Assembly (NCBI GenBank): GCA_043228905.1
Contig: JBHGNT010000001.1
Location: 25,730,001 to 25,794,000 of the forward strand
Reading direction: 5' to 3'
DNA from: Azolla caroliniana
Lineage: Eukaryota > Plantae > Polypodiophyta
DNA: 64,000 nucleotides
The number at the start of each line of letters is the position of its first letter. Positions within the stretch are counted from its first letter, which is position 1. The position numbers were made by a program, and so were the translations under genes. Below, piece after piece: positions 251 through 61,140 of this stretch. The notes under the pieces are model-generated. The model searched no databases. It was not told the DNA's origin and worked only from the letters and a program-made list of their open reading frames with translations.

Positions 251-992
251 TGTCGTGCCTTTCGGCTCCGGATCGTTTGCGTGAGTCGGGTGGGAACCAC
301 CGGGGTTTTGGACTAGGAGGAGGAAGAATTTGAGACTATTATAATTATGAGTAGATTATTAGAAACTTGTGAATCCCACAAGTATAATGTATTTTATTGA
401 TTAATATTTATGTAAGAATATGTATTTAGATTGATAGAGAAAGATATAGAAATCTCGTGAATCCCACAAGTATAGATTATATTATTTTCGTGAATCCCAC
501 GATTATATTAATTGGTGTTTTAGGAAATATATCCAATTTCCCAAATATTTTTCACACAATTACATTGTGCTTCCCATCCTTATGTAGTGATGAGGAAGTC
601 TTAGTAATCCATGCTTTTTCTCTAACTATAGACCCCATGCTTTTCCTATAGATAGACTATATGCTTTATCTAAAGTGATCATGCTTTTTTCTAACTTGTG
701 CGTTTTTTATCATGCACGCTAGATGTGTATGTGTAGCTTTTTCTTTTGTTATGCGTTTTTCTAATGTTTATCCTAGCGTGAATTTACCTTTCTATGTGGG
801 ACATCTATGCTTTAACACTAATGAAATGCTAGTGTAATGGTAAGACATTACATTATTAACATGGAGGTGCAAGGTTCGAATCTTGCCCTATGCATGTTCC
901 ATTTATTTTGCTATTTTCTTCTATTTCTTCATTTTTTATTGAATCTAATACTATATACGTTTTTCACGTAGTGTACAAAATACACTACGACA
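251..992 (-). repeat. 3' LTR of gag-only element
   Basis: Direct repeat of 3054-3795; TG...CA termini; adjacent PPT. Confidence 0.95.
823..894 (+). promoter_or_regulatory. tRNA-like Pol III cassette (A-box/B-box) inside LTR
   Basis: A-box TAGTGTAATGG 830-840, D-stem GTGT/ACAT, B-box GGTTCGAATCT 873-883 inside a GCAAG/CTTGC stem; 43-nt A-B spacing; acceptor stem does not pair. Confidence 0.7.
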
Positions 993-993
993 C

Positions 994-3015
994 TCACCCC
1001 CTCCAAACCCGCACATCCTCCGGTATGTGCCGAAGTTGTTGGTGTTTGTTAGTCTCCTCCGTCCGGTCTCTACCCGATTGGTTTCGTTGCCGGCTCGTAG
1101 TACCCTCGACTTCTCTTGTTATGTTGACTTTGTCTCTCCATTTGGAGCACATCCATTCTTTCCACCCGAACCATTGTCGACATCCGATCCACCATAGTCT
1201 TCGTTCGCTTTTTGCATGGCCCGCTTGGTCCTTGTCATCCGCGGTAGTATCTTTTCTTGCCCTCTTTCTTTTCTTCATCAATCTCGACTTCTTTTCGGAT
1301 TTTCGGTTTAGTCGGATTAGCTTACTTCCGATTCGGTCTCGTCGGATCGTCTTTCGTTTAGTTCGGCTTCCTTTCCGATTTGTATTCGGTCGATCCGGAC
1401 TCGGTTGATCGGTTTTTACCGATTCAGTGCTCTTTCGGGTCGGTTTCTTTTCTTTTCTTTTCGTCCGGATTTGCTTTCTTTTCTTCGTTTTCACCTGCCT
1501 TGTCCGGTTCGACTTTCGGCACTTCTTTCCGTTGTTCGCTACGTAGGTCCTCCGATATGTGCTCGTTGTTCGGTCCTCGTGTGGTTGTAATGCATGCTTC
1601 TTTTCTCGCCGTAGCGCGTGCTTCTTTATTCGCCATAACACGCGTTTCTTTATTCGCCGTAGAGCGTGCTCTGTATTACGCGCTTCTCCCGTCGTAGACC
1701 CGACCTCCGCATTGTCGCACTTTCTTTTAGATTGGAATTTCGGATGGATCATTTTCCATCCGAACCGACTTCCGACTTTACCTTCCTCGCCGCCATCTCC
1801 CGTCTCTCCGGTCTCACGTTGGTTCTCGGACACAACCGCCGAAGTCTCTAGATATTGTTGGCATGAATCCTCGGTATTACCTTCTTTCGTAGTTTCACCC
1901 TTAGCATTCTTCTCGGCTATCTCTTCATCGTATTCGTCGGCTTCGACATTCGTTTTCTCTCCGCCACCTTCCGTCTCTTCGGTCTCACGTTGCCTTTCGA
2001 TCGCAACCGACGGAGTCTCTAGAATCAGTGGTGGGGAAGTCTCAATATGGCAATCCGCCATTGATTCGTCCATAGCCACCTCCGATTCGATTTCGTCTTT
2101 TGTGGCTACCTCCTTAATCACATCCGCTTCACACTCTTTATCTGCATCAATTATGCAAACATCTATTATGCTTACCCCTTTTTGACCCGATGTCTCGGGC
2201 ACTTGTATCCCGAAATTTCCTTCTACACTTGAATTATCGGCCTTATCCTTCGCCATCGTTCTTTCACAAGACGAGTGGGTGTCTTGTTCCACTCTTTCTC
2301 CCGTGGTACCATCATGTTGTATTTCGGCCTTCATATTGGCTTCATCGTTTTTCCTCAATCGACCATCCTTCATGGGCCATGTCGTTGTTGACGAGATTCT
2401 CAGCTTCCTTTCATCATGTCTTTGGCATACCCTTTCGACTTTAGCCCAATCCTCGGTAAGGCCGTTCGCACCGTCATCATCTTCGAGTTCGATCCCAATG
2501 TCCATCCTTTCTTTCCGATCGATCGATCTTACGAACATTAAGACTTTATCTTCTCCCACCAATCTTCGTTCCCGCTCCGAGAGTCGAGCAAAACGATGCT
2601 CGAACTCTAGGAACGCTTGCGTTGCACTTCGGTGAGTCTTCTCCGACGCCACCCATTCATCGAACTCTCGCCAATCTCGTCCCTTCGGTCTATCGTAATC
2701 ATATGCCTCTCGTAAAGCTTCTTCGAATGACCCCCATGTCGAGTTTTGTTGTTGTATCTTGTGGATTCTCCCTTGAAGCCCGTCGGTCGCCACCCGGTTA
2801 AAGGATGTCACTTGCAGTCCTTCCGAAGCCCGGCACCGGAGCATCTCCGCCTTGTAGTCCTGCAAATATCGCGACACATCCTTACCATTAAATTCCCCGT
2901 TTCGTCGCAGAAGCCGCTCTACTGCCGCCTTCATCTCCGACATCGCACGTTGTTCTTGTAGCATTCTCTCGAACATCATCATCATCATGTTCATCGCCTC
3001 TTGTTGATTCTCCAT
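994..3015 (-). CDS. Retrotransposon Gag-like protein (~673 aa) with acidic then highly basic C-terminal extension
   Basis: Uninterrupted ORF (first ATG 3015; ORF track starts at GTG 3036); N-terminal Ty3/Gypsy capsid-like FNGKDVSRYL...TWGSFEEALREAY; stop lies in the PPT. Confidence 0.8.
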   Translation of the reverse strand: MENQQEAMNMMMMMFERMLQEQRAMSEMKAAVERLLRRNGEFNGKDVSRYLQDYKAEMLRCRASEGLQVTSFNRVATDGLQGRIHKIQQQNSTWGSFEEALREAYDYDRPKGRDWREFDEWVASEKTHRSATQAFLEFEHRFARLSERERRLVGEDKVLMFVRSIDRKERMDIGIELEDDDGANGLTEDWAKVERVCQRHDERKLRISSTTTWPMKDGRLRKNDEANMKAEIQHDGTTGERVEQDTHSSCERTMAKDKADNSSVEGNFGIQVPETSGQKGVSIIDVCIIDADKECEADVIKEVATKDEIESEVAMDESMADCHIETSPPLILETPSVAIERQRETEETEGGGEKTNVEADEYDEEIAEKNAKGETTKEGNTEDSCQQYLETSAVVSENQRETGETGDGGEEGKVGSRFGWKMIHPKFQSKRKCDNAEVGSTTGEARNTEHALRRIKKRVLWRIKKHALRREKKHALQPHEDRTTSTYRRTYVANNGKKCRKSNRTRQVKTKKRKQIRTKRKEKKPTRKSTESVKTDQPSPDRPNTNRKGSRTKRKTIRRDRIGSKLIRLNRKSEKKSRLMKKRKRARKDTTADDKDQAGHAKSERRLWWIGCRQWFGWKEWMCSKWRDKVNITREVEGTTSRQRNQSGRDRTEETNKHQQLRHIPEDVRVWRG

Positions 3016-3031
3016 CTCCTTGCCACCCGCC

Positions 3032-3049
3032 TTCACGTCGGGTTCACCA
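3032..3049 (-). promoter_or_regulatory. Primer binding site complementary to tRNA-Trp
   Basis: Plus strand TTCACGTCGGGTTCACCA matches the 3' 18 nt of plant cytosolic tRNA-Trp(CCA) as recalled; lies 4 nt from the 5' LTR. Confidence 0.85.
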
Positions 3050-3053
3050 ACTG

Positions 3054-3795
3054 TGTCGTGCCTTTCGGCTCCGGATCGTTTGCGTGAGTCGGGTGGGAAC
3101 CACCGGGGTTTTGGACTAGGAGGAGGAAGAATTTGAGACTATTATAATTATGAGTAGATTATTAGAAACTTGTGAATCCCACAAGTATAATGTATTTTAT
3201 TGATTAATATTTATGTAAGAATATGTATTTAGATTGATAGAGAAAGATATAGAAATCTCGTGAATCCCACAAGTATAGATTATATTATTTTCGTGAATCC
3301 CACGATTATATTAATTGGTGTTTTAGGAAATATATCCAATTTCCCAAATATTTTTCACACAATTACATTGTGCTTCCCATCCTTATGTAGTGATGAGGAA
3401 GTCTTAGTAATCCATGCTTTTTCTCTAACTATAGACCCCATGCTTTTCCTATAGATAGACTATATGCTTTATCTAAAGTGATCATGCTTTTTTCTAACTT
3501 GTGCGTTTTTTATCATGCACGCTAGATGTGTATGTGTAGCTTTTTCTTTTGTTATGCGTTTTTCTAATGTTTATCCTAGCGTGAATTTACCTTTCTATGT
3601 GGGACATCTATGCTTTAACACTAATGAAATGCTAGTGTAATGGTAAGACATTACATTATTAACATGGAGGTGCAAGGTTTGAATCTTGCCCTATGCATGT
3701 TCCATTTATTTTGCTATTTTCTTCTATTTCTTCATTTTTTATTGAATCTAATACTATATACGTTTTTCACGTAGTGTACAAAATACACTACGACA
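3054..3795 (-). repeat. 5' LTR of gag-only element
   Basis: Direct repeat of 251-992; followed on the minus strand by the PBS. Confidence 0.95.
3626..3697 (+). promoter_or_regulatory. tRNA-like Pol III cassette, second LTR copy (B-box C>T)
   Basis: Same as 823-894 except GGTTTGAATC (T3680 versus C877). Confidence 0.65.
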
Positions 3796-4468
3796 ACGCA
3801 AGAATGCTCGTACGCCTTTATGAGGAGGAGAGGTGCATAGGCACGCCCGAAACGCTCCCTCGTCACAAGACGGCCGAACATACAAGTGGACGAGAACAAA
3901 GAAAGAAAGAAAGAAAGAAAGAAAAACACGAATGATATTGACTAAAGAAATAAATACTTGTTCGATTCCAACACAAGAGGACCCTTTATAAAATAGGGTT
4001 TGATTACAATGTGGCAACTTCTAGTTAACCACAAGCTCAACAAAACATAAATACTAAATGCCCTTAGAGACAAGAGAAAATCTGAATGCGACGAAGATGA
4101 ACACACGAGCACCACAAAAATGCCAACCCCAATGAACCACGACCACCCGAACGGTAAGCACACGGGCTCGCAATGACGAACGGGGTGAAGCAACATCAAA
4201 CCAACGAAGCTCGGGCTCACGAGCACTTCGAGTGCCAACGCGAAGAAGATGAGCACGTGGCGATGAGGGGATGAAGGGGTATGAGATGAAGAGAAGTGGT
4301 GAAGAAGAAGATGAAGAGCTTCGAAGGAAAAATGGCGATAGTCTCCTCCTCCCAAAATGTCCTCCTAAATGAGCCCCCCTCGACCTCCTTTTATAGGAAA
4401 AAAAGAAGGGGGTTCGCCAATTTTGTCTTCAACGCAAAAGGAATAAAATTCCTTATGTCACGCTACAT

Positions 4469-4538
4469 TGTAAGACCGGATTTGAACCGCGCACCTCTAG
4501 CTAGAAGTCAATGTGATTATCCACTAATCCATTAACTC
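4469..4538 (-). pseudogene. tRNA-derived sequence (tRNA-Arg(UCU)-like) just upstream of the LINE
   Basis: Minus strand TGGATTAGTGGATAATCACATTGACTTCTAGCTAGAGGTGCGCGGTTCAAATCCGG: perfect D-stem GATT/AATC, CTTCTA anticodon loop, B-box GGTTCAAATCC (4478-4488); acceptor and anticodon stems broken. Confidence 0.7.
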
Positions 4539-4596
4539 TCTCTTATATAATATATAATTCTATCTCTACAAATTCAGAGCTTGTCTCCCCTCTACT

Positions 4597-4599
<3 letters not shown>

Positions 4600-4644
<45 letters not shown>
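4600..4644 (+). repeat. (CT)n microsatellite
   Basis: Pure dinucleotide run. Confidence 0.95.
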
Positions 4645-4650
<6 letters not shown>

Positions 4651-5000
4651 AACGGCTCTTTCTGGTGCTGTTGTCGTCGTCGTCTGTTGTTGCCGTCATC
4701 TGACGACTGCCGCCGTCTGCTGTTGTTGTTGCTGTCGTCGTCGTCTGCTACCGTCGTCGTCGTCGTCGTCTTCATCGCCCTCGCCCTCGCCCTCAGTGTC
4801 GTGGCGTGTTTCTTCTCTTTCTTTTCTTGATGTTATCGAGTGCCGTTTTTCTTGGCGCGTCCGTGGGTGGATTCTTTTGGCGTGCTCATCTCATGCTACA
4901 TCGTCGCGTGCAAAATGCCAATGTGATTGCGACATACACACAAACTCAACTAAGTCTCGAACCCATTTATTTTATCTTTTTTTTTCTTATTGACACTACA

Positions 5001-5812
5001 ATGACGTCTAAATGAACTAAGGAATATAAGGATACACAAGACAAGGGTATAAGTAAGGAGGACTTTTTAGATATGTTTAATCGTTTAATAAAAATAGAAA
5101 TGGATATGAAAAAATGGGTGAAAGAAGCCGAAACCAACAAGAAAAAAGATAGAGAGGAAAAAGACGCCCTCAAGGCCGAAATAGAAAAACTTAAAGTGGA
5201 AAACACCAACCTTAAAAAACAACTTAATGACATCGAGGTATCTTGAGAGGACGGTGAAATATCCTCCATAGAGGATATAAAGGACAAGATTAAAAAGTTA
5301 AAGAGGAAGTTAAAAATAACATAGAGTTAGCTAAAACAGGTTGGGTAGACGTAGTTAAAAGAAACATTAAAAAAGAAATAAAAGATGAAAATATTGTTAA
5401 TACCACCCTTGAAGAAGAGAAAATGCGTCAAGCCCGACGCTTAAATGTACGTGTCACTGGGCTCAAGGAAGTTGCATCCCTAGATGAGGATGCACAAACA
5501 CTTGGGAAAATGTGAGGGTACACAAAGGCCCTACTTATCACCAAAGCATGGAGGGCTAGACGTGACACAACAAGGAAGAGAGCCTTAGTCCTTCAATTTA
5601 AAGACTTAGACTCTAGAATCACTTTCTTTAAGAAGAGACCAATTCTTCGAGGATTGGGTGGGGACCCTATCTATCTCGATGAAGACCTCACTAAGATGCA
5701 AATTGAGCATCGCAAGAGTTGTATGCCACAAGTTATGCAAGCTCATAAAGAAGGGCATCGCGCCTTTTACCAAGACGAGCGAGTGATCATAAATGATCGC
5801 ACTACTAATTGA
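5001..5812 (+). pseudogene. LINE ORF1 remnant (coiled coil plus C-terminal domain)
   Basis: Translates with stops and frameshifts to an E/K-rich coiled coil then LVLQFKD...PIYLDEDLT, typical of non-LTR ORF1. Confidence 0.7.
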
Positions 5813-7240
5813 CGGCATGTGGCCCATGTGACAGAAAATGCACTTAGTGTTACCCGTAAAAATATACGGGGAGGCATAAGGGTAGGTGTAATGATGTGGT
5901 TGATGTGTATGTGTAAAGTAAATGAGTGTGTGAGTATGTGTATGGACACATGCACAATTATGTGCATGTGTACAAGAATGCGTAACGGTCTTATTTATAA
6001 CGATAATGTAACCGTTACATTGGATGTATTATATAAACCCCTTATGGGCATGTAATGATATACATTTTTCCCCTCTTATTTTTGTGTCATTTTGTATTTT
6101 CACTTTCCTTCTCTCTCTCTCTCTATCGTAACCCCCTTGGGAGGGGGGTGAAGCCATTCTAAGCTTCACCCCCCACCCCAACAACACTTAGGATGACCTT
6201 ATGGAATTGTAACGGCGCACTCTAGACACACCCCAGCCGCCTAGAGGAGATATTAAAGGTATCAGATATACTTTTCTTGGTAGAAACACACCAAAGCCCA
6301 AATAGAGGACTCCCACAGGTTGAAGGATTTCGTTGGGAGTCCGCTTTTAGACAAACCTCACGTCGACACACTACCAGGGGATCTAGAGGTGTCGCGATAT
6401 TGTTTCGTAGAGAGCTACATAATAGGATAGAAATACTGAGGACAGACCCAGAAGCTCGTTTTATGTGGGTGAAAGTCTCCACAAGCAAGGACCAGGCAGT
6501 ATTTTTCGCCATTTGTTACTTTCCCCCAAAAGGACCCCGTTATAATATTGCTGGCTTGGCGAGATTAGTCGATGAAGGAATGCCACATGGGCCTTCCCCA
6601 TACGAACCTTTATCGGATGACATAATCCGATATTCTTCCCAAGGAGAAGTATTCCTTGTAGGAGACTTCAATGCGAGAACCCAATTCCGACAATGCACAG
6701 TATTTCAGATGAATAGAAACCTAGAAACGGTAAATGTCGATTGTTTAGACATAGGCACCATACGTACATCAAAGGATCAAGGTGCAGACGCCACGAGCTT
6801 CGGCCATCATCTGCTCGAACTTGGCAGTCGGCACCAGATGGTCATATATAATGGTTTAGCCAAGTGGTCGAGCTCGGAAGAGCTCACATGTTTCCCACAT
6901 GGAGTAGGGGAAAGCACAGTTGATTATCTAATAGGACGCCTTGAAGCTACCCACATGATTAACTCCTTCCGGGTGGCCCTATGCCCTATTGGCGCAGACC
7001 ATAGTTTCTTATACTTCGAGCTAAAATGTGATATCTCTAAGGTCACCAACTCTAGTCAACCACGTCATCACACCACAATACATTTCACACATGAGCTCTC
7101 TGACATATACTCTCAACATGTTCAGGCCCATCTGTCCTCCCTTGATCCCTCCCTACCTTTAGAAAGCCTTAGTACGAAATTCACACACATCCTTCACTCC
7201 GCAGCAACTAGCAGTTTCCCATATACAAAATACTCAAATC

Positions 7241-7822
7241 TGTTGGGATTACGGTCCCTTCGCATGGGATGGTCGGATATCGGAGATGAATGCCGACAAG
7301 CCCGGTTCCGGTTTCAGTACCGGATGACGAATGTACCCGGAGAGCGATTCGGATGCAGGGACATACCCGTAATATGTTCGCTATGGGCCCCTGAGGCTAT
7401 AGTTGTAAATAGCCCAAAGTCATATAAGTATAAATATGACTTAGGGCAAACCTGTTTTATGTTGCTTCTTATTTTTCTGTTTTCCCACTTGTGAGGAGAC
7501 AGAGAGAGCAGCCGTGAGAGAGAGATATAGAGCGCGAGAGAGAGAGAGGAAGAGGTAGACGCCTCTGTGTATTTCCGCCGCCTGTGGCGAGAACAGTGAG
7601 CTCAAGGTCGTTGCCTTGCAGCTCGCCATTGTATATTTCTCTGTGCATAGTTTGGTTTGGAGTCTCGCACTCCCGTGGTTTTTTTTTCCCGTATAGGGTT
7701 TTCCACGTTAATCCCTGTGTATCGTGTCTTTCTCTGTATTTCCTATTTTCTGCTGCATTGATCCGCGATTAATCGGTTGTGGCCGAGAGGCGAAGGTGAA
7801 TTCAAGCGTTGATTTCCTTACA
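7241..7822 (+). repeat. Copia 5' LTR
   Basis: TGTTGG...TTACA; differs from the 3' LTR by one visible substitution and one T in a poly-T run. Confidence 0.97.
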
Positions 7823-7851
7823 AACTGGTATCAGAGCGACTGTTGCAGAAA

Positions 7852-10800
7852 ATGGAAGGCGGCGGCAGCGGGCAGCCGATGATGATGGTGCTGAATGCAC
7901 AGAATTACGCCGACTGGAAGATCAAGATGGAGGACCTTCTGATTGTTCGGGACCTGTACGAACCGATTGACAGGTCGGAAATACCGAAAGGGGTACTTGA
8001 GTCGGAGTGGAAGCTCCTGAACCGGAAAGCCGTAGCGACAATCCGACAATACGTCGACGTGAGCGTCCTACAACATGTGGCGAACGACACCAACGCATAT
8101 GAGATGTGGAAGAAGCTGTCGGGCCTCTACGAGAGGAAGAATGCGTTGAACCGGACCTCCCTGATGAGGAAGATAGTGAATCTCAAGTACCGGGACGGCG
8201 AGAGTATGGTGGAACACGTAAGCACGTTCATGGGATTCGTGAATCAGCTTGCGGCGATCAAGTTCCCGTTGGAGGATGCAATGCAAGCCATCATCCTGAT
8301 GTGCACATTGCCGGAAAGCTGGGAGAACTTGGTGGTGACTCTCAGCACCTCGTGCACCGAAGATAACTTGTCCTTACAAACGGTAAAGACAAGTATTCTG
8401 AATGAAGAAGCGCGTCGGAGAGATAAGGAACCGGCCTCCGACTCGAAGGCGCTGCTTACCGAATCGGATCGGGGAAGACAATGGAACCGGAGTCCGCAAA
8501 GACGGGAGAAGTCGGGGACCCGGTCGCAGTCAAGAGGAAGACCCACATGCTTCCACTGTGGGAAGCCGGGGCACTTCCGAAAGAATTGTCGGCATTACCG
8601 AAAAGACAACGGAGTCGACGACACCGACTCGAAGAAGTCACCGGAGAGAAACGGTGCATACCGGGGAGCCACGGACCGGAGAGGTTCGGATCGGCGAGGG
8701 CAGGACCGGAAAGGAACAACGGCACTCGCGGCAAGTGAGGAAGAAATCATGCTCATCACCGAAGAAGGTGAGCTAAACGTTGCCGGCGATGAGACGACCT
8801 GGGTGGTTGATTCCGGAGCATCGTTCCACCTGACCCCGGAGAGAAGATACTTCTCATCCTACACAGCCGGTGAGCATGGCTGTGTTCGGATGGGAAATGA
8901 AGGTACGTGCCGGATTGCCGGCATAGGAGACGTGTGGTTGACAACCCCGACCGGATGCAAAATGCTGCTGAAGGATGTCCGACACGTTCCGGAGGTTCGA
9001 TTGAACCTGATTTCGGCCGGGAGGCTAGACGATGAAGGCTACACAGGTAGCATCCGGAACGGTGTCATGAAGTTCAGCAAAGGGAGCCTGATAGTGGCTC
9101 GGGCCCGGAAAGACAACACACTGTACCTGATGAATGCCCGGTTATGTCCGGAAGAGTTGAATGTGGCAGCCGACACTGCCGGTGAGCTGTGGCACAAGAG
9201 ATTGTGCCACATGAGTGAGAAGGGGATGAAGAGGCTTGCAGAAGACAACCTTATCCCAGTGAAGCATGTGCACCTGGAGAAGTGCACTGATTGCCTGGCC
9301 GGTAAGCAGAACCGAACCTCCTTCCACTCAAGGCCACCGACGAGACGTAGTGCACCATTGGAGTTGGTGCACACCGATGTGTGTCAGGTAGAAACGAAGT
9401 CACATGGCGGAGCTCAGTACTTCGTAACTTTCATAGATGATCATAGCCGAAGACTGTGGACGGCACCGTTGAAGACAAAGGACCAAGTGTTGTGCGTCTT
9501 CAAAGAACTCCACGCGAGAGTGGAAAGGGAATCCGGCAAGAAGCTGAAAGCGATACGAGCGGATAACGGAGGGGAATACCGGGGGCAGTTCCAGGAGTAC
9601 TGTCGCTCGAAGGGAATCCGGCTCGAGTTTACTGTGCCGAAGACGCCGGAACTGAACGGGCTGGCCGAGAGGATGAACCGGACCATAATGGAGAGGGTCC
9701 GGAGTATGCTGGCGCATGCGAAATTACCCAAGGGGTTTTGGGCTGAGGCAATGTCGACGGCGACATATGTGATAAACAGATCACCCTCAGTACCTTTGGA
9801 CGGAGACATGCCGCAGAAAGTGTGGACCGGTAAGGAAGTGTCCTACCGGCATCTGAAGGTGTTCGGGTGTCTCGCATACGTGCACGTGGCAAAGGACCGG
9901 AGAGGAAAGCTAGATCCAAAGACCCGGCCATGCATATTCCTCGGTTACGGCGATGACGAGTTCGGCTACCGAGTATGGGACCCGGTCGACAAGAAGATAT
10001 TCAGGAGTCGAGACATCATCTTCATGGAGGACAAGACACTCGCCGACTGGGAGTCGGAGAAGAAGGTAAAAAGCTCCAAGTCGACCGGTGAGGATCAACT
10101 CTACAAGGAGCAGTCCCGACCGGCAAGGGACCGGTTAGCACTCGAGGATCCGGCCAAAGACGGTGAAGAAACAGAACCGGCCGAAGAAGATGAAAACGAT
10201 ACCGGAACCGGCCCCGATCCCGAAATGGATTCGGATGAAGAAGAAGAATCGGAAGAACCGGTTACCGAAGCTCCCGAACGGAGATATCCTCTAAGAGAGA
10301 GAAGGGCCCCCCGGAGATTTCCGGAACCAGAGCACGTGCTGCTAACCGACGAGGGGGAGCCGGAGAGCTTTGAAGAAGCAAAGCATAACACCCAGAGCCG
10401 CAGGTGGTTGAGTGCCATGCAGGACGAGATGGATTCCCTGCATGAGAACCACACATATGAACTTGTGGAGTTGCCGAAAGGAAAGCGGGCACTTCGAAAC
10501 AAGTGGGTGTTCAAGCTGAAACCGGGAGATGCCGGAAACCCCCCGAGATACAAAGCCAGGATCGTGGTGAAGGGGTTTCAGCAGAAGAAGGGCGTCGACT
10601 TCGACGAGATATTTGCCCCGGTAGTGAAGATGACCTCCATCCGGACGGTGCTGAGCATAGCGGCAAGCATGGACCTCGAGGTAGAACAGATGGACGTGAA
10701 GACGGCATTCCTTCACGGTGACCTCGATGAAGAGATCTACATGCAGCAACCGGAAGGATTCGAGAAGAAAGGGAAGGAGCACCTGGTATGCCGGTTGAAG

Positions 10801-11928
10801 AAGAGCCTTTACGGACTGAAGCAGGCTCCCCGGCAATGGTACCGGAAGTTCGACTCCTTCATGACCGACGAAGGGTACCTCAAAACGCAGTCCGACCACT
10901 GCGTGTTTGTGAAGAAGTTCGAAGGAGGAGACTTCCTAATACTCCTCCTGTACGTGGACGACATGTTGATCGTCGGACGGGACCAGGTCAAGATACGGAT
11001 GCTGAAGAAGGCTCTTCACCGAACCTTCTCAATGAAGGACTTGGGTCCGGCGAGGCAAATACTAGGGATGCACATCATCCGGGACCGGAAGAAGAAGCAG
11101 TTGTGGCTGTCACAGGAGAAGTACGTGACGAAGGTGCTTCACCGGTTCAACATGTCGGAAGCAAGACCGGTCGGATCGACCCTCCCGGCAAACTGCAAGC
11201 TGTCCAGCAAGCAAAGTCCCAAGACAAAGGCTGAAAAGGAGGATATGATGAAAGTGTCGTATGCCTCAGCCGTCGGGAGCTTGATGTACGCCATGGTGTG
11301 TACGAGACCGGACATCGGATACGCAGTCGGAGTGGTGAGCCGGTACATGAGCAATCCCGGTAAAGAGCATTGGAACGCGATCAAGTGGATACTCCGATAC
11401 CTGAAGGGCACAGCAAATGTGTGCCTCCGATTCGGCTCCGGGAAACCCGAACTCGACGGCTTCACCGATTCGGATATGTCGGCTGATGCAGATACCAGCC
11501 GGTCCACATCAGGGTATGTGATGACGTATGCAGGGGGAGCTGTTTCGTGGCAGTCGAGGCTGCAGAAGACGGTTGCGTTGTCAACCACGGAGGCAGAGTA
11601 CATGGCGGCTGTTGAAGCCGGCAAGGAAATAATATGGATGAAGGACTTCATTAGAGAGCTTGGGATCCGGCAGGAGGAGTACCGACTCTACTGCGATAGT
11701 CAGAGTGCCATCCACCTTGCGAAGAACGCGGCCTATCACTCCCGGACGAAGCACATCCAGCGAAGATATCACTGGATCCGGGAAAGGATAGAAGACAAGG
11801 AGTTCATGCTGACGAAGATCCACACGGACGAGAACGGGTCGGATATGCTGACCAAGGTACTCACACCCGACAAGCTGGAAGCATGCCGAAGGAGGATCGG
11901 ATTGGAGAGACATCCCATGCCGAAGTGA
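7852..11928 (+). CDS. Copia gag-pol polyprotein (Gag, CCHC knuckle, protease, integrase, RT, RNase H)
   Basis: CFHCGKPGHFRKNC, WVVDSGAS, WHKRLCH..CTDC, integrase HTD/DNGGE/AER, YVDD, FTDSD, KHI, SDMLTK; no stops. Confidence 0.97.
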   Translation: MEGGGSGQPMMMVLNAQNYADWKIKMEDLLIVRDLYEPIDRSEIPKGVLESEWKLLNRKAVATIRQYVDVSVLQHVANDTNAYEMWKKLSGLYERKNALNRTSLMRKIVNLKYRDGESMVEHVSTFMGFVNQLAAIKFPLEDAMQAIILMCTLPESWENLVVTLSTSCTEDNLSLQTVKTSILNEEARRRDKEPASDSKALLTESDRGRQWNRSPQRREKSGTRSQSRGRPTCFHCGKPGHFRKNCRHYRKDNGVDDTDSKKSPERNGAYRGATDRRGSDRRGQDRKGTTALAASEEEIMLITEEGELNVAGDETTWVVDSGASFHLTPERRYFSSYTAGEHGCVRMGNEGTCRIAGIGDVWLTTPTGCKMLLKDVRHVPEVRLNLISAGRLDDEGYTGSIRNGVMKFSKGSLIVARARKDNTLYLMNARLCPEELNVAADTAGELWHKRLCHMSEKGMKRLAEDNLIPVKHVHLEKCTDCLAGKQNRTSFHSRPPTRRSAPLELVHTDVCQVETKSHGGAQYFVTFIDDHSRRLWTAPLKTKDQVLCVFKELHARVERESGKKLKAIRADNGGEYRGQFQEYCRSKGIRLEFTVPKTPELNGLAERMNRTIMERVRSMLAHAKLPKGFWAEAMSTATYVINRSPSVPLDGDMPQKVWTGKEVSYRHLKVFGCLAYVHVAKDRRGKLDPKTRPCIFLGYGDDEFGYRVWDPVDKKIFRSRDIIFMEDKTLADWESEKKVKSSKSTGEDQLYKEQSRPARDRLALEDPAKDGEETEPAEEDENDTGTGPDPEMDSDEEEESEEPVTEAPERRYPLRERRAPRRFPEPEHVLLTDEGEPESFEEAKHNTQSRRWLSAMQDEMDSLHENHTYELVELPKGKRALRNKWVFKLKPGDAGNPPRYKARIVVKGFQQKKGVDFDEIFAPVVKMTSIRTVLSIAASMDLEVEQMDVKTAFLHGDLDEEIYMQQPEGFEKKGKEHLVCRLKKSLYGLKQAPRQWYRKFDSFMTDEGYLKTQSDHCVFVKKFEGGDFLILLLYVDDMLIVGRDQVKIRMLKKALHRTFSMKDLGPARQILGMHIIRDRKKKQLWLSQEKYVTKVLHRFNMSEARPVGSTLPANCKLSSKQSPKTKAEKEDMMKVSYASAVGSLMYAMVCTRPDIGYAVGVVSRYMSNPGKEHWNAIKWILRYLKGTANVCLRFGSGKPELDGFTDSDMSADADTSRSTSGYVMTYAGGAVSWQSRLQKTVALSTTEAEYMAAVEAGKEIIWMKDFIRELGIRQEEYRLYCDSQSAIHLAKNAAYHSRTKHIQRRYHWIRERIEDKEFMLTKIHTDENGSDMLTKVLTPDKLEACRRRIGLERHPMPK

Positions 11929-11938
11929 AGGGGGAGTT

Positions 11939-12519
11939 TGTTGGGATTACGGTCCCTTCGCATGGGATGGTCGGATATCGGAGATGAATGCCGACAAGCC
12001 CGGTTCCGGTTTCGGTACCGGATGACGAATGTACCCGGAGAGCGATTCGGATGCAGGGACATACCCGTAATATGTTCGCTATGGGCCCCTGAGGCTATAG
12101 TTGTAAATAGCCCAAAGTCATATAAGTATAAATATGACTTAGGGCAAACCTGTTTTATGTTGCTTCTTATTTTTCTGTTTTCCCACTTGTGAGGAGACAG
12201 AGAGAGCAGCCGTGAGAGAGAGATATAGAGCGCGAGAGAGAGAGAGGAAGAGGTAGACGCCTCTGTGTATTTCCGCCGCCTGTGGCGAGAACAGTGAGCT
12301 CAAGGTCGTTGCCTTGCAGCTCGCCATTGTATATTTCTCTGTGCATAGTTTGGTTTGGAGTCTCGCACTCCCGTGGTTTTTTTTCCCGTATAGGGTTTTC
12401 CACGTTAATCCCTGTGTATCGTGTCTTTCTCTGTATTTCCTATTTTCTGCTGCATTGATCCGCGATTAATCGGTTGTGGCCGAGAGGCGAAGGTGAATTC
12501 AAGCGTTGATTTCCTTACA
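11939..12519 (+). repeat. Copia 3' LTR
   Basis: Direct repeat of 7241-7822. Confidence 0.97.
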
Positions 12520-15500
12520 AAATCAAGGTAGATCAGGATCTATGCCACAAAATAAATGGTATGATGAGGATTGTAGGGACTTACATAGACAACTTACAGT
12601 ATCACAACTCAATGGTAGTATTACCTCAATACAAGCTCGCAAAGAAATGCTCAAGATGACACGCCGTAAGAGATGGGCGTGGGAGGCATCCCAATATTGG
12701 GAACTCTACCATATGCTCATGAGTAGCGATTGCGCCACGGCATGGAAGAGACTACGGGAGCCAAGACCACAAACGCCCATCGAAGATCCCGAAACCTGGC
12801 ACACATATATAGAGAGACTTTACCAAATCCCAAACCAACCACCCATTCCAATGCCTTCCACACCCCAACCTACCAGGGGGACACTTTTCACAACCTCTAG
12901 GGTCGTGAAGGTCATAAAGAAATTACAACATAGGAAGTCCATGAACCACACAGGATTGCGAGCAAAACACATTATATATGCAGGAGAGTGCCTAGCTCCC
13001 TTGCTAATTCTAATCTTCAATCATGCCCTTGCAGAGGGTTTCCACCACAGTGGACTATGAACACAATGGCCCCCATACATAAAGGAGGGGACCCCATGGA
13101 CCCAAATACATATAGGACCATTATGATAGGTCATACCCTTGCTAAATTATATGGTGCAGTAATGGAAGCAGAGCTTAGCGATTATATGGAGACCCTAAAT
13201 CTTCGTGCACTTGAACAAGCTAGCTTTAGATGAGCCTTCTCCACCATTGATCATATCTACACAATTAGATGCTTAATTGACCAAACTAAGGCTCGCAAGA
13301 AGAAATTATATTGTTGTTTTGTGGACTTCCGCAAGGCCTTTGACATAGTCCCTAGAGAGCGGTTGTTTGATAGGCTTAAAAGCTTGAAGATGCCAGATGA
13401 CATGATCTAGGCCATCTACGCACTATAGGAACAAGTGTCCGGGTGTGTCCAATGCCCAGGTGGCCTATCCAATTGTTTCACTATCACTATTGATGTAAAA
13501 CAAGGTTGCCCCCTATCACCGACACTTTTTGGGATCTACATTGATGAGATCACAGATTTTATTGCTCGTAAGGTAGGCAACATAGTAGTCCTTGGGGATA
13601 CGCAGGTTCGTATCTTGCTCTATGTGGATGACATAGTTTTGCTCTCTGAATCCGAACACGACCTACAAAGGCACCTTAATGCCTTAGATGACTTTTGTGC
13701 ACAACGAGGATTGGTAGTGAATCTAGGGAAAACTAAAGTCCTTATCTTCCACACATCGGCCCAAGTTAGAGCTAAGTGTCACCTAACTATCTCCCATAGC
13801 CCAGTTGAGGTGGTTGGATCATACATCTATCTCGGAGTCACTTTCAGTGCTCACTCAGGTAAATTTTCGATGACACGGGCAGCGAAGGATAGATTTACGA
13901 GAGGACGTGCATCCCTCTCACTCCTAGAGAGACAATGCCACCAAGCATAATTTCAAGAACCACGGACTAAAGGGTGGCTCTTTGACTCATTAGTGACCCC
14001 CTCCCTCATGTATGCATCAGTGGTTTGGGCTCCAGGATTACCATCTTTCATGTGGACGCAATTAGAGAGACCATTGGTGATGATGTTATCACACCAACTC
14101 CAAAGCAAATCGACAGTACCACATGACATTATTAGGGTTGAGTTCACGTTACCCCCAATGTTAGTAGAGGCACTTTTCCAACTTGTAGTCTTTCTTCATA
14201 GGATACATAGCCAACCACATGATAGAATATCTCATCAAGCCTTTAAGGCCTCTCGATCATTGTATGAGTCCAGCTATACTAGGTCATGGTATGGCATGAT
14301 GGTGAGTTGGCTTCTTGCGAATGGTCTAGACATTAATAACCTACCTCCCCTTAGGTACAACCACACGATTGATAACACTTTAATCTCTCATGAGGACCGC
14401 AATAAAGTAATACGCCAAGACATATGGCAAATTTAGACTCGGTATAAATGGATCACCCCACGAGAGCCACTCCCATCTAAAATGTTGTACTATAAGGAAC
14501 ACTTCATGCACTTCTCTGAGTTAGATTTTATCATGCGGCCAAAATATCTAGATGTATTCTTACCACATGCACTAAGGGTTGCCATTGGACAACTTAGAAT
14601 ATCATCTCACCAACTTGAGATTGAGAATGGCCGTACTAATGGAGTCCCTAGGGAGGAACGAATATGTAGGTTATGTCACATAGAGATAGAGGATGAGTAT
14701 CACTTTACATGCAAGTGCCCAACCTACGCCGAGATAAGGGCAAAATACCAAGACATACTTGGTTCCTCTCCCACCCTCCCCAAACTATTAGATACTCTAG
14801 ATATAAAGAAATTAGGCAAATACATTCTAGAGCTAAAACAACACAAAGAGAATAAGTTACAAAATGTTGACAATAATGTTGCTAATGTTCACCACCATGT
14901 AACAAATGAAATTTTTCAGGAACAGGGGGAGACAACAAATGTCGACACACTTGCACCACTCGGCCTTTCCCTTGATGAGGTAGAAAACCAAAGAAGAACC
15001 GGACGTCTTCGGGTGCCAGGTTTCAAAGCAACTCGACGTGGTGTGGAAGCAATAATGAAAATAAGGGAACGTGAGCTACACCGCCTAGAAGCCATGGCTA
15101 GGGCACTCTCTATATTGGAACCACGGGTCACACCCACATCAAAACCCTTTGACCCCCCACTTCTTTTCGAGAGGCTTGGGTGGAAATAAAATTAGGATTA
15201 GTGTAAAGTCACTTCCTTTATTGAGTATACCACGTATTGTACACTACTAGAACTCTTTTAGCTTAAGTTCTATGTTTACTTTATTTTATTTTAGTTATGA
15301 TGACTGGATAAATACTGATTTTGTTGTAAACCAATTGTCTCATGGGCCAAATTTGGCTTTAGAAGACGTTAATATATCTTTCTTTCTTTCTTTCTTACTT
15401 TTTACACGAGCTTCTATACATCCTTTCCACCCTTTCTTTTCCCTTTTCTTTTGCATGTACACACATATTGCACATGCACATTTTAACCCCCCCTTTCGCC

Positions 15501-26528: not shown

Positions 26529-30170
<3,642 letters not shown>

Positions 30171-38474: not shown

Positions 38475-39572
38475 CCATGGATTAAACCCCTACAATCCAC
38501 AATGGCATATAGTAAATTAAGAGGATCTATTTAGAGTAAATAGAGAGGAGAGAGATTTGAGTTTCAAACCCAAGACCTAGGGTGAGAGATCACTAGGGTA
38601 AGGTAAGAGAGAAAGAACTTTATAATGATTTATATTATTTGTGATCTTCTAGACTATAATTGCCACAATCTCTTCAACTCTTCTTCTTCTCTCCTTTTTC
38701 CCTGATCTAGACTTAACAAATACAGTACTTACAACTGCAGGAATTAACTCAAGATCCAAGACAAAGAAATTCTACCCTTCGTGGATACTTTTGAGCAATG
38801 TTATTATAACTTCCCGCCATATCATTCCTTGCCTGTAATAAAAGAAAAAGAAACTCAAATACTTCCAGACTCGGCTCAATTCTAGATTGACAGCCACCTT
38901 GAAAAGCAAAGTTTCACATGTTGTGCAAGATGGTTGTCCAATCACAAGTTACCCAAGATTACAGCAAGGAAAAGTAAATAATATATATCAATTCCTCTTT
39001 GTTCCAATCATAACTATCAAGATATGTATGAATGGTGATTACAGATGTATCCTGTCATATTAACAGGTGCAGCTTGTTCAGTTTCTCAATGAAAAGATGA
39101 AAGATCCATTCAGACAAAATCACGTAGGGAAAAAATGAGTTTCTTCTTGGGGTTTATAAATCATCACAATATTCATTCAATATGCTGCACCAGCAGACCC
39201 ACTGTTTTGTGAGCATGATGGCGCATTACTCAAAAGAACAACTTTCATCTAGCAGCTTTGGAACATTGTGTCTCCAAGACGAACTGATAAATGTTCCAGA
39301 CTAAGAAACAGAAGGTTGCAATGATGACCATTGATGCTGAAATTTGAAGGTTACCAATGTAGTATTCAAGTAGATGTCTATGAATTAAAAAAATAGAACT
39401 AGCACCCTTGAACAACAAACCATCCGATAGGGCTTTTAGCTTTCTCACAGGAAGCTCTTCAGTTATAGCAAACATTAACTTTATACAATGTAATGAAGAC
39501 TCCCTCACACACATTGATGCTGGCCAGTACCTAACCAGCTTTCATTAGAAGCAGCAATCAGCAAATATTTTA

Positions 39573-43524: not shown

Positions 43525-43683
43525 GCAATCAGCAACTGTTCAGTATGCGCCAAACCAAACCACAAAAACCACAGCCTAATGGCTTAACTGATTAACAGTT
43601 TGGTTCAGTTTAGGTTTACGAATTTGCAAACGGTTCCGTCAGGTTTTCCTTTGGCTTGGGTGTTCAAAGATTTAGTTCAAGTC
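43525..43683. mobile_element. Left arm of a decayed hAT-like MITE related to 47884-48347
   Basis: GCAATCAGCAACTGTTCAG..., GGCTTAAC and GTTCAGTTTAGGTTT resemble 47884-47990. Confidence 0.5.
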
Positions 43684-44474
43684 TTTATCAGCTTAACAGT
43701 TTGAGGTTTAAACAGCTTCGTTGCAGATTTAATGGATTAATGGTTTAGGCTTAGGACATTTTTCAAATACTATTAAATATAAATTAATTTTATAAAGTTA
43801 AGAGCTATAGCCAATTACCATCATAAGTTATAACATTTATCAGCTTAACAGTTTGAGGTCTTTATCAGCTTCGTTGCAGATTTAATGGATTAATGGTTTA
43901 GGCTTAGGACATTTTTCAAATACTATTAAATATAAATTAATTTTATAAAGTTAAGAGCTATAGCCAATTACCATCATAAGTTATAACATTTATCAGCTTA
44001 ACAGTTTGAGGTCTTTATCAGCTTCGTTGCAGATTTAATGGATTAATGGTTTAGGCTTAGGACATTTTTCAAATACTATTAAATATAAATTAATTTTATA
44101 AAGTTAAGAGCTATAGCCATTACCATCATAAGTTATAACATTTATCAGCTTAACAGTTTGAGGTCTTTATCAGCTTCGTTGCAGATTTAATGGATTAATG
44201 GTTTAGGCTTAGGACATTTTTCAAATACTATTAAATATAAATTAATTTTATAAAGTTAAGAGCTATAGCCAATTACCATCATAAGTTATAACATTTATCA
44301 GCTTAACAGTTTGAGGTCTTTATCAGCTTAACAGTTTGAGGTCTTTATCAGCTTCGTTGCAGATTTAATGGATTAATGGTTTAGGCTTAGGACATTTTTC
44401 AAATACTATTAAATATAAATTAATTTTATAAAGTTAAGAGCTATAGCCAATTACCATCATAAGTTATAACATTT
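43684..44474. repeat. Tandem array, 5 x 152-153 bp
   Basis: Units start at 43684, 43836, 43989, 44141, 44294; nearly identical; last unit has an extra 25-bp internal duplication. Confidence 0.95.
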
Positions 44475-45779
44475 GAAATCCAATATTTTCTTTTTTCCCT
44501 CAATTTATATGCAGGAGACTTTTGGTTAGAAAACTCTTTGTTAAAGAAGTGAGCAGATGTTAACACAAAATACTAGTTTGCAACAAACTACAAAACTGCA
44601 GCTTAACAGTTTGCTACGTTTTGTTTGGGAAAGATAGGGCAGAACGTAAAAAAATTAAATGATATGCTGGAAGATTTAGGCCAGAAATAGAAGCCAGAAG
44701 TCTGTTACCATTGTATGATAGGAGAAGCTAGTGGCAGAGACCTGAAAAGAATGAAGTAAGAGGTCCTTTGCACCTTAAATAAAACCTACTCCTGAGTGGG
44801 AAGTTAATCATATCCCTCCCCTTGCTCTAACATAAACTTAGATTGAAGTGACTTGAACAATTTGTGGATCTCTATCCCTTACAGCAGAAAATAATAATGA
44901 TTTTGATGATCAAGATCTGAATATTTAACCCATGAATTGAGCTGTTTACTGCACTTCATGCCCTAAGTTGTCATAAACGTAGATCAAAGGAGTTGTAGGG
45001 GGGTCCTGGAACAAAACAAAAACAAAGAAGAAGGAAAGGAAGTGAAGAAGCTTGCCAATTCTTCAGAAGGGAAGGAAGAAAATGATAATAGTGCAGAATA
45101 GGCAGGGATAAAACAATATTAACAGGGAAAGAATCCACAATGGTGGCATGCTTCGCCGAACCTCAGGGCACCAGAACATATACATTCAAAAAAGAGGAAT
45201 CAAAGGAAAACATATGGCAGAGATGAAAAGAATGGCGTGAGACCAATGGCAGGAACGGGAAGACTGCAGTGAGATATGTGGCCGAAACGAAACGAAACGA
45301 AACGAATTTAGGCATATCGCAGAGAAACGTAAGAACTAAGAGAACAGTTTTGAACATCAGGCCAATGATGTTGGGGGTGAAAGCAACATCGGACCATGTT
45401 GAAAAAGATTAAAAGACTCAGAAGAGACAAAGAAACCCTAAAAACAAAATTCGAAAGGGACGCACGTCGATTCCGGGAACAGCTAAAACCTAGAAATTGA
45501 AGCCAAAAGAAGAAGTAATGACGAGAAGGAGAAGAATCGAGGAAGAAAGGAAAAAAACTCAAAACTATAATTGCGATCCGAAGAAGAAGAAGAGATGGAG
45601 AGAAAAGAAAACCCCGAAAACGTAATGGCGAGCACAAGAAGAACTCAGACGGAAGGTAAGGGAGGGGAGCTATGGAGATCTACGCAGAGAGAAACGGGAC
45701 AAACAGAATACAGAAAATGGAAAAATAAATAAATAAAATTTAACTAAAACAGAAGAAAAAGGGGGTAAGATGAGCATAC

Positions 45780-45900: not shown

Positions 45901-45938
45901 AAGATCGATCCAACAAATGGAATGGCCGGCCGACTGGA

Positions 45939-59182: not shown

Positions 59183-60679
59183 GTCGAGTCGAATGTCTCT
59201 TTTAGTCGATAGACCCACTTACACGGAAGAGCACGTCGATTCTTCGGTAATTTGACCAAGTCCCAAGTCTTGTTTGCGCGAATGGAGTGCATTTCCGACT
59301 CCATCGCCGGATGCCAGGTGGCTGAGTCGGCAGATACCAATGCTTCTTCATAAGACGTTTATTCGCCGGTGTCGGTAAAGAAAATTCCGGGAGAGTACCT
59401 TTCCGGAGGTTGCGACGGTCTCTCAAATCTTCGAGGTATGACTGGACTGATCGCACCGGGTATAGGTGTCGGATGGTCGGAAGCCGAGCCATTCAGCTGT
59501 GCTGAATTGGTGGATTCAGGACGAGAGGTGTTGGTTACCCGTGAAACTGATCTCGTGTTGTGGGTTGGGCCTTCATGAAGGGTTGGCACTTCGGAAAATA
59601 TTACCCTTCGGGCTTCAATAAGCCTTTCGACCATTTTATGCATAGCCGACTCGTTGAACACGACGTCCGAACTTCGGACGATTTGTTTGTGCTTGAGGTC
59701 CCAGAGTTGGTATCCGATCTTGCCATCGGGTCCGTATCCAAGGAAACTACATTTCCTTGATCTTGGTTCGAGTTTCCGGCGGTCGTCTTTCGGTATGAGG
59801 GCATACACCTCGCAACCGAAGATCCTCAGCTTGTCATAATTCGGCTTACTGTCGGTCCATGTTTCCTGAGGTATTTTAAGTCCTAGAGGTCTACTTGGCG
59901 ACATATTTATTATGTGTACTGCCATAAGTAGAGCCTCCACCCAGAAACCATCCGACAATCCGGAGTGTTGGAGCATGGATATTATGCGTTCTTGAATCGT
60001 CTGATTCATGCGTTCAACAATTCCGTTCTGCTCCGGACTATAGGGTGTCGTATATTGACGTCGAATGCCGCGTTCCCGGCAAAATTTGCCGAATTCTTCT
60101 GACTTGAATTCTCCTCCATTATCGGTTCGGAGACATTTTAGTTCCCGACCAGTCTGGCTTTCGACCATTGCAAGCCATTCGGAGAATATCGAGAACACTC
60201 GATCTTTGGTTCTAATGGGGTAAGCCCACACCTTCTGAGTCGAGTCGTCAATAAAACTGACGAAGTACGAAGCACCGCTGAGAGACTGATGTGGCATTGG
60301 GCCACAGACGTCTGTGTGAACCAAATCGAGGGGACTCGATTCTCTTGGTGCTAATGTCGGGTGTGATGCAGCTACCTGTTTGCCGTACTGGCAATCCTCG
60401 CAGAATTGGTGATCCGAGAAGGAGAGCTTGGGGATGTAACCAGCTCTGGATAGGTGCGTTATGCCGGCCTTCCTAAGGTGTCCAAGTTGTCTGTGCCATA
60501 ACAATGACACAGGGATATCAACCAAAAATAAGTCACCCTCTTTGAGTGTGACATATAAAGGGTACAAAGAGTGTACCTTTGGTCCTTGAGCAAGCAGGAG
60601 GTTCCCTTTGTGGAGTGTCCACCCTCCTGATCAGAACCTGGCATCGATGCCGGCTTCGTCAAGTTGTCCGACTGAGATC

Positions 60680-61140
60680 TGTCATGATAAAAGTCACATC
60701 ATGCATCGAAAGGATCATGACACTCACATTATGACTCGAAAGGATTTGAACCCACGACCTTATTGTACACATGTCAAATCCTTAACCATTGTATTAATAT
60801 TCTTATATGTATAGTCGCTAGAATATGAAATCTAATATCATAGGAATATTCTATATTACTCTACATTCTAGAATGACCTAGAATATTCTAGAGTGTTCTA
60901 TACCACTAGAACCTTCTAGAATACTCTAGAGATCTTCTAGATTACTCTACATTCTAGGATAACCTAGAATATTCTAGAGTGTTCTCTATTACTTATAAAT
61001 AGGGATCTACCACCCATCCCAAACCTAAATTGGTTCAACGCCATTTTGTAGCCTACTCTTTGTAATCCATTTTACGCTTCAATATAATAATTCTCTTTCA
61101 ATTATCTCTCTATCTCTTTTTCTCTCTCTCAGTCTTGACA
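60680..61140 (+). repeat. Gypsy 5' LTR (461 bp)
   Basis: TGTCATGA...TCTTGACA termini; internal TCTAGA-rich repeats 60855-60988; TATAAATA 60994-61001. Confidence 0.88.
60733..60803 (-). promoter_or_regulatory. tRNA-like Pol III cassette inside Gypsy LTR
   Basis: Minus strand TAATACAATGGTTAAGG...AGGTCGTGGGTTCAAATCC; A-box 60786-60796, B-box 60742-60752, 44-nt spacing. Confidence 0.65.

What the first reader, a model, noticed from the sequence alone, without database searches (positions are those of the whole stretch)
823..60803. Outward-facing tRNA-like Pol III cassettes at the 5' edge of three unrelated retroelements
Seen: the gag-only LTR (823-894 and 3626-3697), the LINE 5' flank (4469-4538) and the Gypsy LTR (60733-60803) each hold an A-box and B-box 43-44 nt apart (tRNA geometry), with AGGT just before the T-arm. 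The sequence between the boxes is dissimilar among the three and the acceptor stems are lost. Each cassette is antisense to its element and lies within ~170 nt of the element's 5' end. Known: TFIIIC binds A/B boxes, tDNAs can act as chromatin barriers in yeasts and mammals, and Cassandra TRIMs carry 5S Pol III cassettes in their LTRs. Inference: independent capture of tRNA-type promoters, possibly as a portable insulator or anti-silencing module, or as a source of antisense RNA.
Basis: partly seen in the sequence, partly recalled or inferred. Interest (0 to 1): 0.85.

Follow-up and report, generated by a model that had tools for sequence, protein, structure and literature searches.

The report
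Backward tRNA promoters guard retrotransposon ends
A family of complete plant jumping genes keeps, at the outer edge of each end-repeat and facing outward, the two promoter boxes of a tRNA gene while the rest of the tRNA has decayed, which likely gives each copy a portable docking site for a host factor that would shield its own promoter from silencing.

Summary
The four cassettes are real (4 hits at 2 or fewer mismatches; 0-1 in each of 8 shuffles). The picture needs correcting. The 'LINE flank' cassette belongs to the high-copy repeat upstream of the LINE, and its orientation to that repeat is unresolved. The two LTR cases hold up and are family traits, not SINE debris.

In relatives of the Tcn1-like chromovirus, 10 of 14 LTR clusters, found without using the motif, carry an antisense A/B-box pair 43-44 nt apart near the LTR edge (sense 0 of 14). 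Boxes, spacing and AGGTC are conserved. Spacer and flanks are at background identity, and tRNA stems and a terminator are not kept. One subclade has a second antisense cassette inside pol.

Best reading: a DNA-level TFIIIC site, likely a chromatin barrier upstream of the Pol II promoter. No occupancy or RNA data were available. The closest known elements are Helenus and Cassandra, which are short non-coding TRIMs; the Helenus LTRs seen carry sense cassettes. This scan noted Helenus-like and backwards tRNA relics in LTRs of other genomes before. Verdict: new variant of a known kind.

The parts
251..992 (-). 3' LTR of element 1 (non-autonomous, Gag-like ORF only; Phygy-like by target site)
   Evidence: 742 nt, one difference from the 5' LTR; polypurine tract at 993-1010
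823..894 (+). tRNA-type cassette 1a, antisense in U3; A-box 830-840, B-box 873-883
994..3015 (-). Gag-like ORF without RT or integrase
   Evidence: 17 relatives, of which four longer ones match DUF4100 and show a protease-like motif; no Pfam hit itself
3032..3049 (-). primer-binding site 4 nt inside the 5' LTR (tRNA-Trp type is recalled, not tested)
3054..3795 (-). 5' LTR of element 1; 4-bp target duplication ACGC at 247-250 and 3796-3799
   Evidence: an NCGN target motif is reported for Phygy in PMC6317226
3626..3697 (+). cassette 1b, antisense; the single LTR difference (C to T at 3680) falls in its B-box
3796..4588 (.). high-copy repeat unit (continues at 1-250) into which element 1 inserted; LTR or internal region of another retroelement, not resolved
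   Evidence: minus-strand TATA at 4396; PBS-like stretch at 3838 on +
4469..4538 (-). cassette 2; A-box 4531-4521, B-box 4488-4478; part of the repeat unit, not of the LINE
4992..15370 (+). decayed LINE (ORF1 from about 4992, ORF2 from 6226) split by an intact Copia at 7241-12521; not linked to cassette 2
60681..61138 (+). 5' LTR of a Tcn1-like chromovirus
   Evidence: alignment with L041 and L008
60733..60803 (-). cassette 3, antisense in U3; A-box 60796-60786, B-box 60752-60742
60844..60974 (+). nGAAn/nTTCn repeats resembling heat-shock elements (motif recalled), between cassette and TATA
60994..61000 (+). TATA box of the LTR Pol II promoter, about 196 nt from the A-box and divergent from the cassette
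61028..61150 (+). predicted self-priming pair: 61028-61039 is nearly complementary to 61139-61150; no tRNA PBS
   Evidence: self-priming predicted for Tcn1 in PMC6317226
61229..64000 (+). gag, protease, RT and start of RNase H of the chromovirus (cut by the window end; this copy has a stop in pol)

Best explanation
These retrotransposons carry a decayed tRNA gene backwards at the outer edge of their LTRs and keep only its promoter boxes, which likely bind the host factor TFIIIC and would act as a portable chromatin barrier protecting the element's own polymerase II promoter. Shown: a fixed antisense position in U3, 110-200 nt upstream of the TATA box; conserved A-box, B-box, AGGTC and spacing, with randomised spacer and no conserved stems or terminator; presence in elements with intact gag-pol and a chromodomain. 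Inferred from known biology: TFIIIC binds such boxes; tRNA genes and TFIIIC-only sites stop heterochromatin spreading in yeast and mammals; a class I chromodomain steers a fungal chromovirus into heterochromatin. Inferred here: an element that lands in silent chromatin gains from a barrier between the flank and its promoter, and U3 copying places one at both ends of every new copy.
For: Cassette-blind set: 27 PPT-defined LTR starts, 14 clusters at 80% identity. 10 of 14 have an antisense pair at 3 or fewer mismatches with spacing 43-44, although 40-50 was allowed; sense 0 of 14; next 130 nt 0 of 12. Over 20 LTRs, mean pairwise identity is 0.61 (A), 0.75 (positions 44-48, not used for anchoring) and 0.75 (B), against 0.38 in the gap-free spacer and 0.31-0.37 in flanks. 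No stem has more Watson-Crick pairs than column shuffles (p 0.19-0.56). B-box to LTR edge varies from 21 to 72 nt in 16 LTRs while A-B stays 43-44. 27 of 33 strong hits in 317,742 nt are antisense, 25 of them at LTR edges; shuffles gave 0-2. The cassette is also in the distant L065/L067 lineage (Gag 51% identical). Long gag and pol frames in 14 of 14 loci checked, chromodomain motif in 12 of 14, Pfam Chromo in 3 of 3. Only 6 of 20 have a T4 run before the LTR edge. Barrier role of TFIIIC sites: passages of PMC12409998. Chromodomain targeting: passages of PMC3350952.
Against: No binding, chromatin or RNA data. The plant barrier review read in passages (PMC9540200) cites tRNA genes and TFIIIC only for animals and yeast. 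Yeast TFIIIC tolerates 32-93 bp between boxes, so the strict 43-44 and the conserved AGGTC are more than TFIIIC alone explains. 4 of 14 cluster representatives are weaker or broken (4-5 mismatches). The 20-row conservation set was picked after seeing hits, anchored on the boxes, and left out the broken L034 and L018 (L020 used instead), so box conservation is partly circular. With G-U pairs counted, the acceptor stem is slightly above shuffles (p 0.03). The window's youngest element has its one LTR mutation in the B-box. 64 of 79 loci come from one series of assemblies, so hosts are not independent. The Copia LTRs in the window have no cassette. A cassette inside pol is not at a boundary.
Confidence: 0.45

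Rival explanations
1. The cassette is an upstream activating element. TFIIIC recruits TFIIIB/TBP on the LTR-inner side and opens chromatin for the divergent Pol II promoter, as tRNA-like boxes do for the Leishmania U2 snRNA gene.
For: Both boxes are kept, not only the B-box, and the orientation is strictly divergent from the TATA. Precedent: abstract of PMC4950102.
Against: The A-box to TATA distance varies from 111 to 196 nt. The Leishmania target is itself a Pol III gene. These LTRs have their own TATA and heat-shock-like repeats.
Confidence: 0.2
2. Pol III makes antisense RNA from the cassette. From the 3' LTR it would run over the polypurine tract into pol and tune or self-silence the element.
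For: Always antisense, including the second cassette in the protease-RT linker (9 of 36 linkers). Intact A plus B geometry is what transcription needs.
Against: No conserved terminator (6 of 20), fold or spacer sequence. Self-silencing needs a benefit to explain its conservation.
Confidence: 0.17
3. TFIIIC bound near the U3 end of the linear cDNA tethers the integration complex to tRNA-gene clusters or Pol III hubs.
For: The cassette sits 21-72 nt from the integrase-processed end. 2 of 79 loci lie beside a tRNA gene or tRNA-like array (L019, L044). tRNA-gene targeting is known in other chromoviruses (passages of PMC5006619).
Against: The window's copies sit inside other retroelements. Both tRNA-adjacent loci are element fragments in short-read assemblies. 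A chromodomain already offers targeting.
Confidence: 0.08
4. The cassettes are neutral relics of an old SINE or tRNA insertion carried along in LTRs.
For: Helenus is proposed to arise by SINE insertion into an LTR. Some copies are broken.
Against: The spacer is at background identity while boxes and length persist. No target duplication, dispersed copy or depth spike. The same orientation occurs in separate lineages and in pol.
Confidence: 0.1

Closest known systems
Helenus (TRIMp3; Kojima 2024, PMC10886601; parts 1-5 of 6 read, figure legends, one supplement search)
   Same: [quoted passage not shown]
   Different: Helenus was screened among TRIMs under 1000 bp and is non-coding; the cassette is proposed as the element's own promoter, and it reads sense in the three whole LTRs seen in the supplement. 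Here it is antisense, in U3, in elements of about 5 kb with intact gag-pol and a TATA box. The paper says many Repbase LTRs have tRNA-like parts but analysed only TRIMs, and expects autonomous partners to use Pol II promoters.
Cassandra TRIMs (PMC7215508 passages; PMC10886601)
   Same: Pol III internal promoter kept in LTRs; present in ferns.
   Different: 5S-derived A and C boxes, used to transcribe a short non-coding element; no B-box.
tDNA barriers and ETC (extra TFIIIC) sites (PMC12409998 passages)
   Same: Box sequence matters, not the tRNA product; proposed mode of action.
   Different: Host loci in yeast and mammals, often B-box only; not carried by an LTR; not cited for plants in the review passages read (PMC9540200).
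Leishmania U2 snRNA upstream tRNA-like element (PMC4950102 abstract)
   Same: A non-tRNA keeps boxes A and B and serves a neighbouring transcription unit.
   Different: The target is a Pol III snRNA gene in a protist; the element is not mobile.
Tcn1 chromoviruses and Phygy elements of seed-free plants (PMC6317226, PMC2864245, PMC3350952; passages)
   Same: Host elements: chromodomain, no tRNA PBS and predicted self-priming (Tcn1); 4-bp NCGN target (Phygy).
   Different: The passages retrieved for tRNA, PBS and LTR terms mention no Pol III boxes in their LTRs.

Membership tests
Helenus / TRIMp3 | tRNA-like sequence with conserved boxes A and B in the LTRs | tested here: met
Helenus / TRIMp3 | short non-coding TRIM (screened under 1 kb; longest 1263 bp) | tested here: not met
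   element 1 is 3.5 kb with an ORF; chromovirus relatives have pol frames of 1135-1382 aa
Helenus / TRIMp3 | cassette oriented to transcribe the element's own template RNA | tested here: not met
   antisense 10 of 14, sense 0 of 14
Helenus / TRIMp3 | Pol III transcription from the cassette | not testable with these tools
   no raw RNA reads were offered
Cassandra | 5S rRNA-derived A/C-box domain | tested here: not met
   no Rfam 5S hit; geometry is tRNA A/B
tRNA-derived SINE | independent dispersed copies with own target duplication and tail | tested here: not met
   no flanking direct repeat above 7 nt and no other copies in the window; no depth spike over cassettes 1 and 2
functional tRNA gene | cloverleaf with paired stems | tested here: not met
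Tcn1 chromovirus (host of cassette 3) | Ty3/gypsy pol ending in a chromodomain | tested here: met
   shown in the 95%-identical relative L001; the window copy is cut off
Tcn1 chromovirus (host of cassette 3) | no tRNA PBS, self-priming complementarity | tested here: met
Tcn1 chromovirus (host of cassette 3) | RT-RH-INT phylogeny with reference Tcn1 elements | not tested
   only a quick Gag tree without reference elements
Phygy (host of cassette 1) | 4-bp NCGN target duplication | tested here: met
   ACGC; PMC6317226
Phygy (host of cassette 1) | RT phylogeny | not testable with these tools
   element has no RT; no DNA of autonomous relatives obtained
tDNA / ETC chromatin barrier | TFIIIC occupancy and B-box-dependent barrier activity | not testable with these tools
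   needs ChIP and reporter assays

The most novel reading that the evidence does not exclude
Autonomous, heterochromatin-seeking retrotransposons of seed-free plants have repeatedly captured tRNA promoters as built-in TFIIIC insulators. Each new copy would arrive with a barrier at both ends, scattering many mobile tDNA-type boundary elements through the genome: a cis-acting anti-silencing strategy and a natural test of tDNA barriers in plants.
Probability: 0.35. Interest if true: 0.85.

Novelty: new variant of a known kind. Interest (0 to 1): 0.62.

Why it matters
How elements that target silent chromatin stay transcribable is an open question, and tRNA-gene barriers are cited for yeast and animals but not plants in the review passages read. 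A clade-wide, sequence-constrained, outward-facing A/B-box pair in autonomous LTRs gives a precise, mutable target to test both. It also extends Pol III promoter capture in LTRs beyond short TRIMs to a use other than transcribing the element. In practice, such cassettes could inflate tRNA-pseudogene counts and mislead SINE annotation in these genomes.

Tried and rejected
No whole genome is held, so no genome-wide LTR scan was possible. No RNA holder was listed, and all laid runs were contigs, so expression is untested. Viral-collection scans with the Gag alignment and with P0123 found no relative. PBS-pattern scans returned records titled as bacterial genomes or viral contigs (15 and 92 loci); these were not analysed further. 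The LINE 5' flank reading was rejected. The exact right edge of the repeat unit is hidden because the tool skips the CT repeat from 4589. A functional tRNA or conserved cloverleaf was rejected; three LTRs of one subfamily and element 1 fold strongly, but not as cloverleaves. The family-level test of box versus neighbour variation for element 1 was inconclusive (40 of 268 rows shown). For cassette 2, 40 of 53 rows were shown; in runs X1-X3 the common B-box variants fall at tolerated positions. CpG decay in the B-box (14 CG, 5 CA, 1 TG) leans towards selection but is too small to count. The distant JGI group (L061, L068-L079) showed no LTR 5' edge in the scans, and L058/L059 match weakly without AGGTC, so reach beyond this host group is open. 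The Gag tree is the quick one, with L055 on a very long branch, probably out of frame. Host lineage is unsettled: the best named AGT2 hits are ferns at 88-90% and a conifer at 90%. A recalled statement that a published fern-genome study found excess predicted tRNA-His and tRNA-Arg genes could not be checked: it was not in the text or the 9 held files of PMC6786969, and the main supplement is too large to read. Literature searches listed no paper on antisense A/B boxes in autonomous LTRs; only open-licence papers are covered and most hits were seen as listings. Sequence look-ups in earlier findings gave nothing.
Full report
Observation. The four cassettes are at the stated places. With a fixed consensus and 42-45 nt spacing they are the only sites in the window at two or fewer mismatches; 8 shuffles gave 0-1 each. 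A matrix trained on 16 cassettes from other loci, without the window's own clade, ranks them first to fourth. None is called a tRNA, and they do not match each other by BLAST.

Element 1. LTRs at 251-992 and 3054-3795 differ at one base, which lies in the B-box, and are flanked by ACGC. Primer site, polypurine tract and ORF put the element on the minus strand, so the cassette is antisense. The ORF has 17 relatives, of which four longer ones match DUF4100. A 4-bp NCGN target is reported for Phygy (passages of PMC6317226), so it is Phygy-like; there is no RT to test this. Contigs of 4 runs bridge the cassette to both LTR sides and depth shows no spike over it, so it is part of the family LTR.

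Cassette 2. It is not LINE sequence. Contigs join it to the repeat upstream, also in runs labelled as two other organisms, and depth falls several hundredfold beyond the CT repeat (the tool warns that depth is no copy number and skips the repeat itself). In organism C, loose ends that diverge beside 4465 still hold a B-box-like stretch. The unit has a minus-strand TATA at 4396 and a PBS-like stretch on the plus strand at 3838. I could not settle whether the cassette is sense or antisense to its element.

The chromovirus. The LTR runs 60681-61138, followed by gag, protease and RT, with no tRNA PBS and a predicted self-priming pair. A Gag alignment fetched 79 loci. Long gag and pol frames are present in 14 of 14 loci checked, and Pfam finds a chromodomain in 3 of 3. 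I defined LTR starts by the polypurine tract alone: 27 starts in 14 clusters. Ten of 14 representatives have an antisense A/B pair at three or fewer mismatches, all spaced 43-44; sense 0 of 14; the next 130 nt 0 of 12. Two more score 4 and two score 5; one of the latter has cluster members with good boxes. Across all 317,742 nt, 27 of 33 strong hits are antisense, 25 of them at LTR edges (near-identical copies included); shuffles gave 0-2. The trait reaches the distant L065/L067 lineage.

What is conserved. In 20 LTR cassettes, chosen after seeing hits and omitting two broken ones, identity is 0.61-0.75 in the boxes and in AGGTC at tRNA positions 44-48, which was not used for anchoring. It is 0.38 in the gap-free spacer and 0.31-0.37 outside. 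Stems show no more Watson-Crick pairing than column shuffles, and folding gives no cloverleaf. The distance to the LTR edge varies from 21 to 72 nt while box spacing does not. Only 6 of 20 have a T4 run before the edge. The cassette lies wholly in U3, 110-200 nt upstream of the TATA and facing away from it; 7 of 12 LTRs have three or more heat-shock-like cores in between. A second antisense cassette lies in frame in the protease-RT linker in 9 of 36 linkers, with spacing 42 or 49; those placed on the tree fall in one clade.

How it likely works. The pattern is that of a protein-binding site on DNA. TFIIIC reads these boxes, and tRNA genes and TFIIIC-only sites block heterochromatin spreading in yeast and mammals (passages of PMC12409998). 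Class I chromodomains steer a fungal chromovirus into heterochromatin (passages of PMC3350952), and the moss element RLG1 clusters in heterochromatic islands yet is transcribed (passages of PMC7466625). I therefore favour a portable barrier between flank and LTR promoter (0.45). Rivals are a divergent activator (0.2; abstract of PMC4950102), antisense Pol III RNA (0.17), a neutral relic (0.1) and an integration tether (0.08). Against the favoured reading: there are no occupancy data, the plant review passages give no tDNA barrier (PMC9540200), spacing is stricter than TFIIIC needs, and most loci come from one series of assemblies.

Comparison. Helenus (PMC10886601) has tRNA-like LTRs with conserved boxes. 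It is a short non-coding TRIM whose cassette is proposed to transcribe the element and reads sense in the examples seen. Cassandra uses 5S boxes (PMC7215508 passages). The elements here fail the size and orientation tests, so they are not Helenus, though they share the capture of a Pol III promoter in an LTR. Kojima notes that other Repbase LTRs hold tRNA-like parts but did not analyse them. Searches listed no description of this antisense arrangement in autonomous elements; PMC7245038 and PMC2864245 passages add none. Earlier notes of this scan report Helenus-like diatom TRIMs and a backwards relic in a probably fungal LTR; these are unchecked AI notes.

Verdict. A real, family-level and constrained feature; one of the three examples was mis-assigned. 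New variant of a known kind; interest 0.62.

Noticed in passing
L033:2913-3134, L036:3185-3427, L037, L039, L040, L044, L045, L053: Second antisense A/B-box cassette encoded in frame within the protease-RT linker of one subclade, in two spacing variants (42 and 49).
   Followed up: partly
window 3793-3870: Very high summed depth and a PBS-like stretch at 3838 on the plus strand; may relate to the 'tRNA end instead of polypurine tract' families noted elsewhere in this genome.
   Followed up: partly
window 59-217 versus 1351-1519: The repeat that element 1 inserted into shares a 69%-identical stretch with the C-terminal part of element 1's ORF.
   Followed up: no
window 60844-60974 and related LTRs: Arrays resembling heat-shock elements between cassette and TATA in 7 of 12 LTRs; absent in another subclade.
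   Followed up: partly
window 61139-61150: The self-priming site just inside the LTR reads, on the minus strand, like a B-box core without an A-box.
   Followed up: no
L024, L027, L038 LTR cassettes: In this subfamily the spacer is partly an inverted copy of the B-box region and folds into a long hairpin (z -3 to -7).
   Followed up: partly
L044:100-6400; L019:128-201: A tandem array of tRNA-like units and an intact tRNA-Asp gene lie next to chromovirus fragments.
   Followed up: no
window 7241-12521: Intact young Copia (1371-aa frame, LTRs 99.7% identical) inserted in the LINE endonuclease-RT region; no cassette in its LTRs.
   Followed up: partly
window 38550-38580; L003:1480-1530: Weak B-box-like stretches with AGGTC outside annotated elements; possibly fragments of other cassettes or SINEs.
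   Followed up: no
window 43661-44507: Tandem repeat of about 153 nt, five copies.
   Followed up: no
window 27587-28132: Exon of a host alanine-glyoxylate aminotransferase 2 gene.
   Followed up: partly
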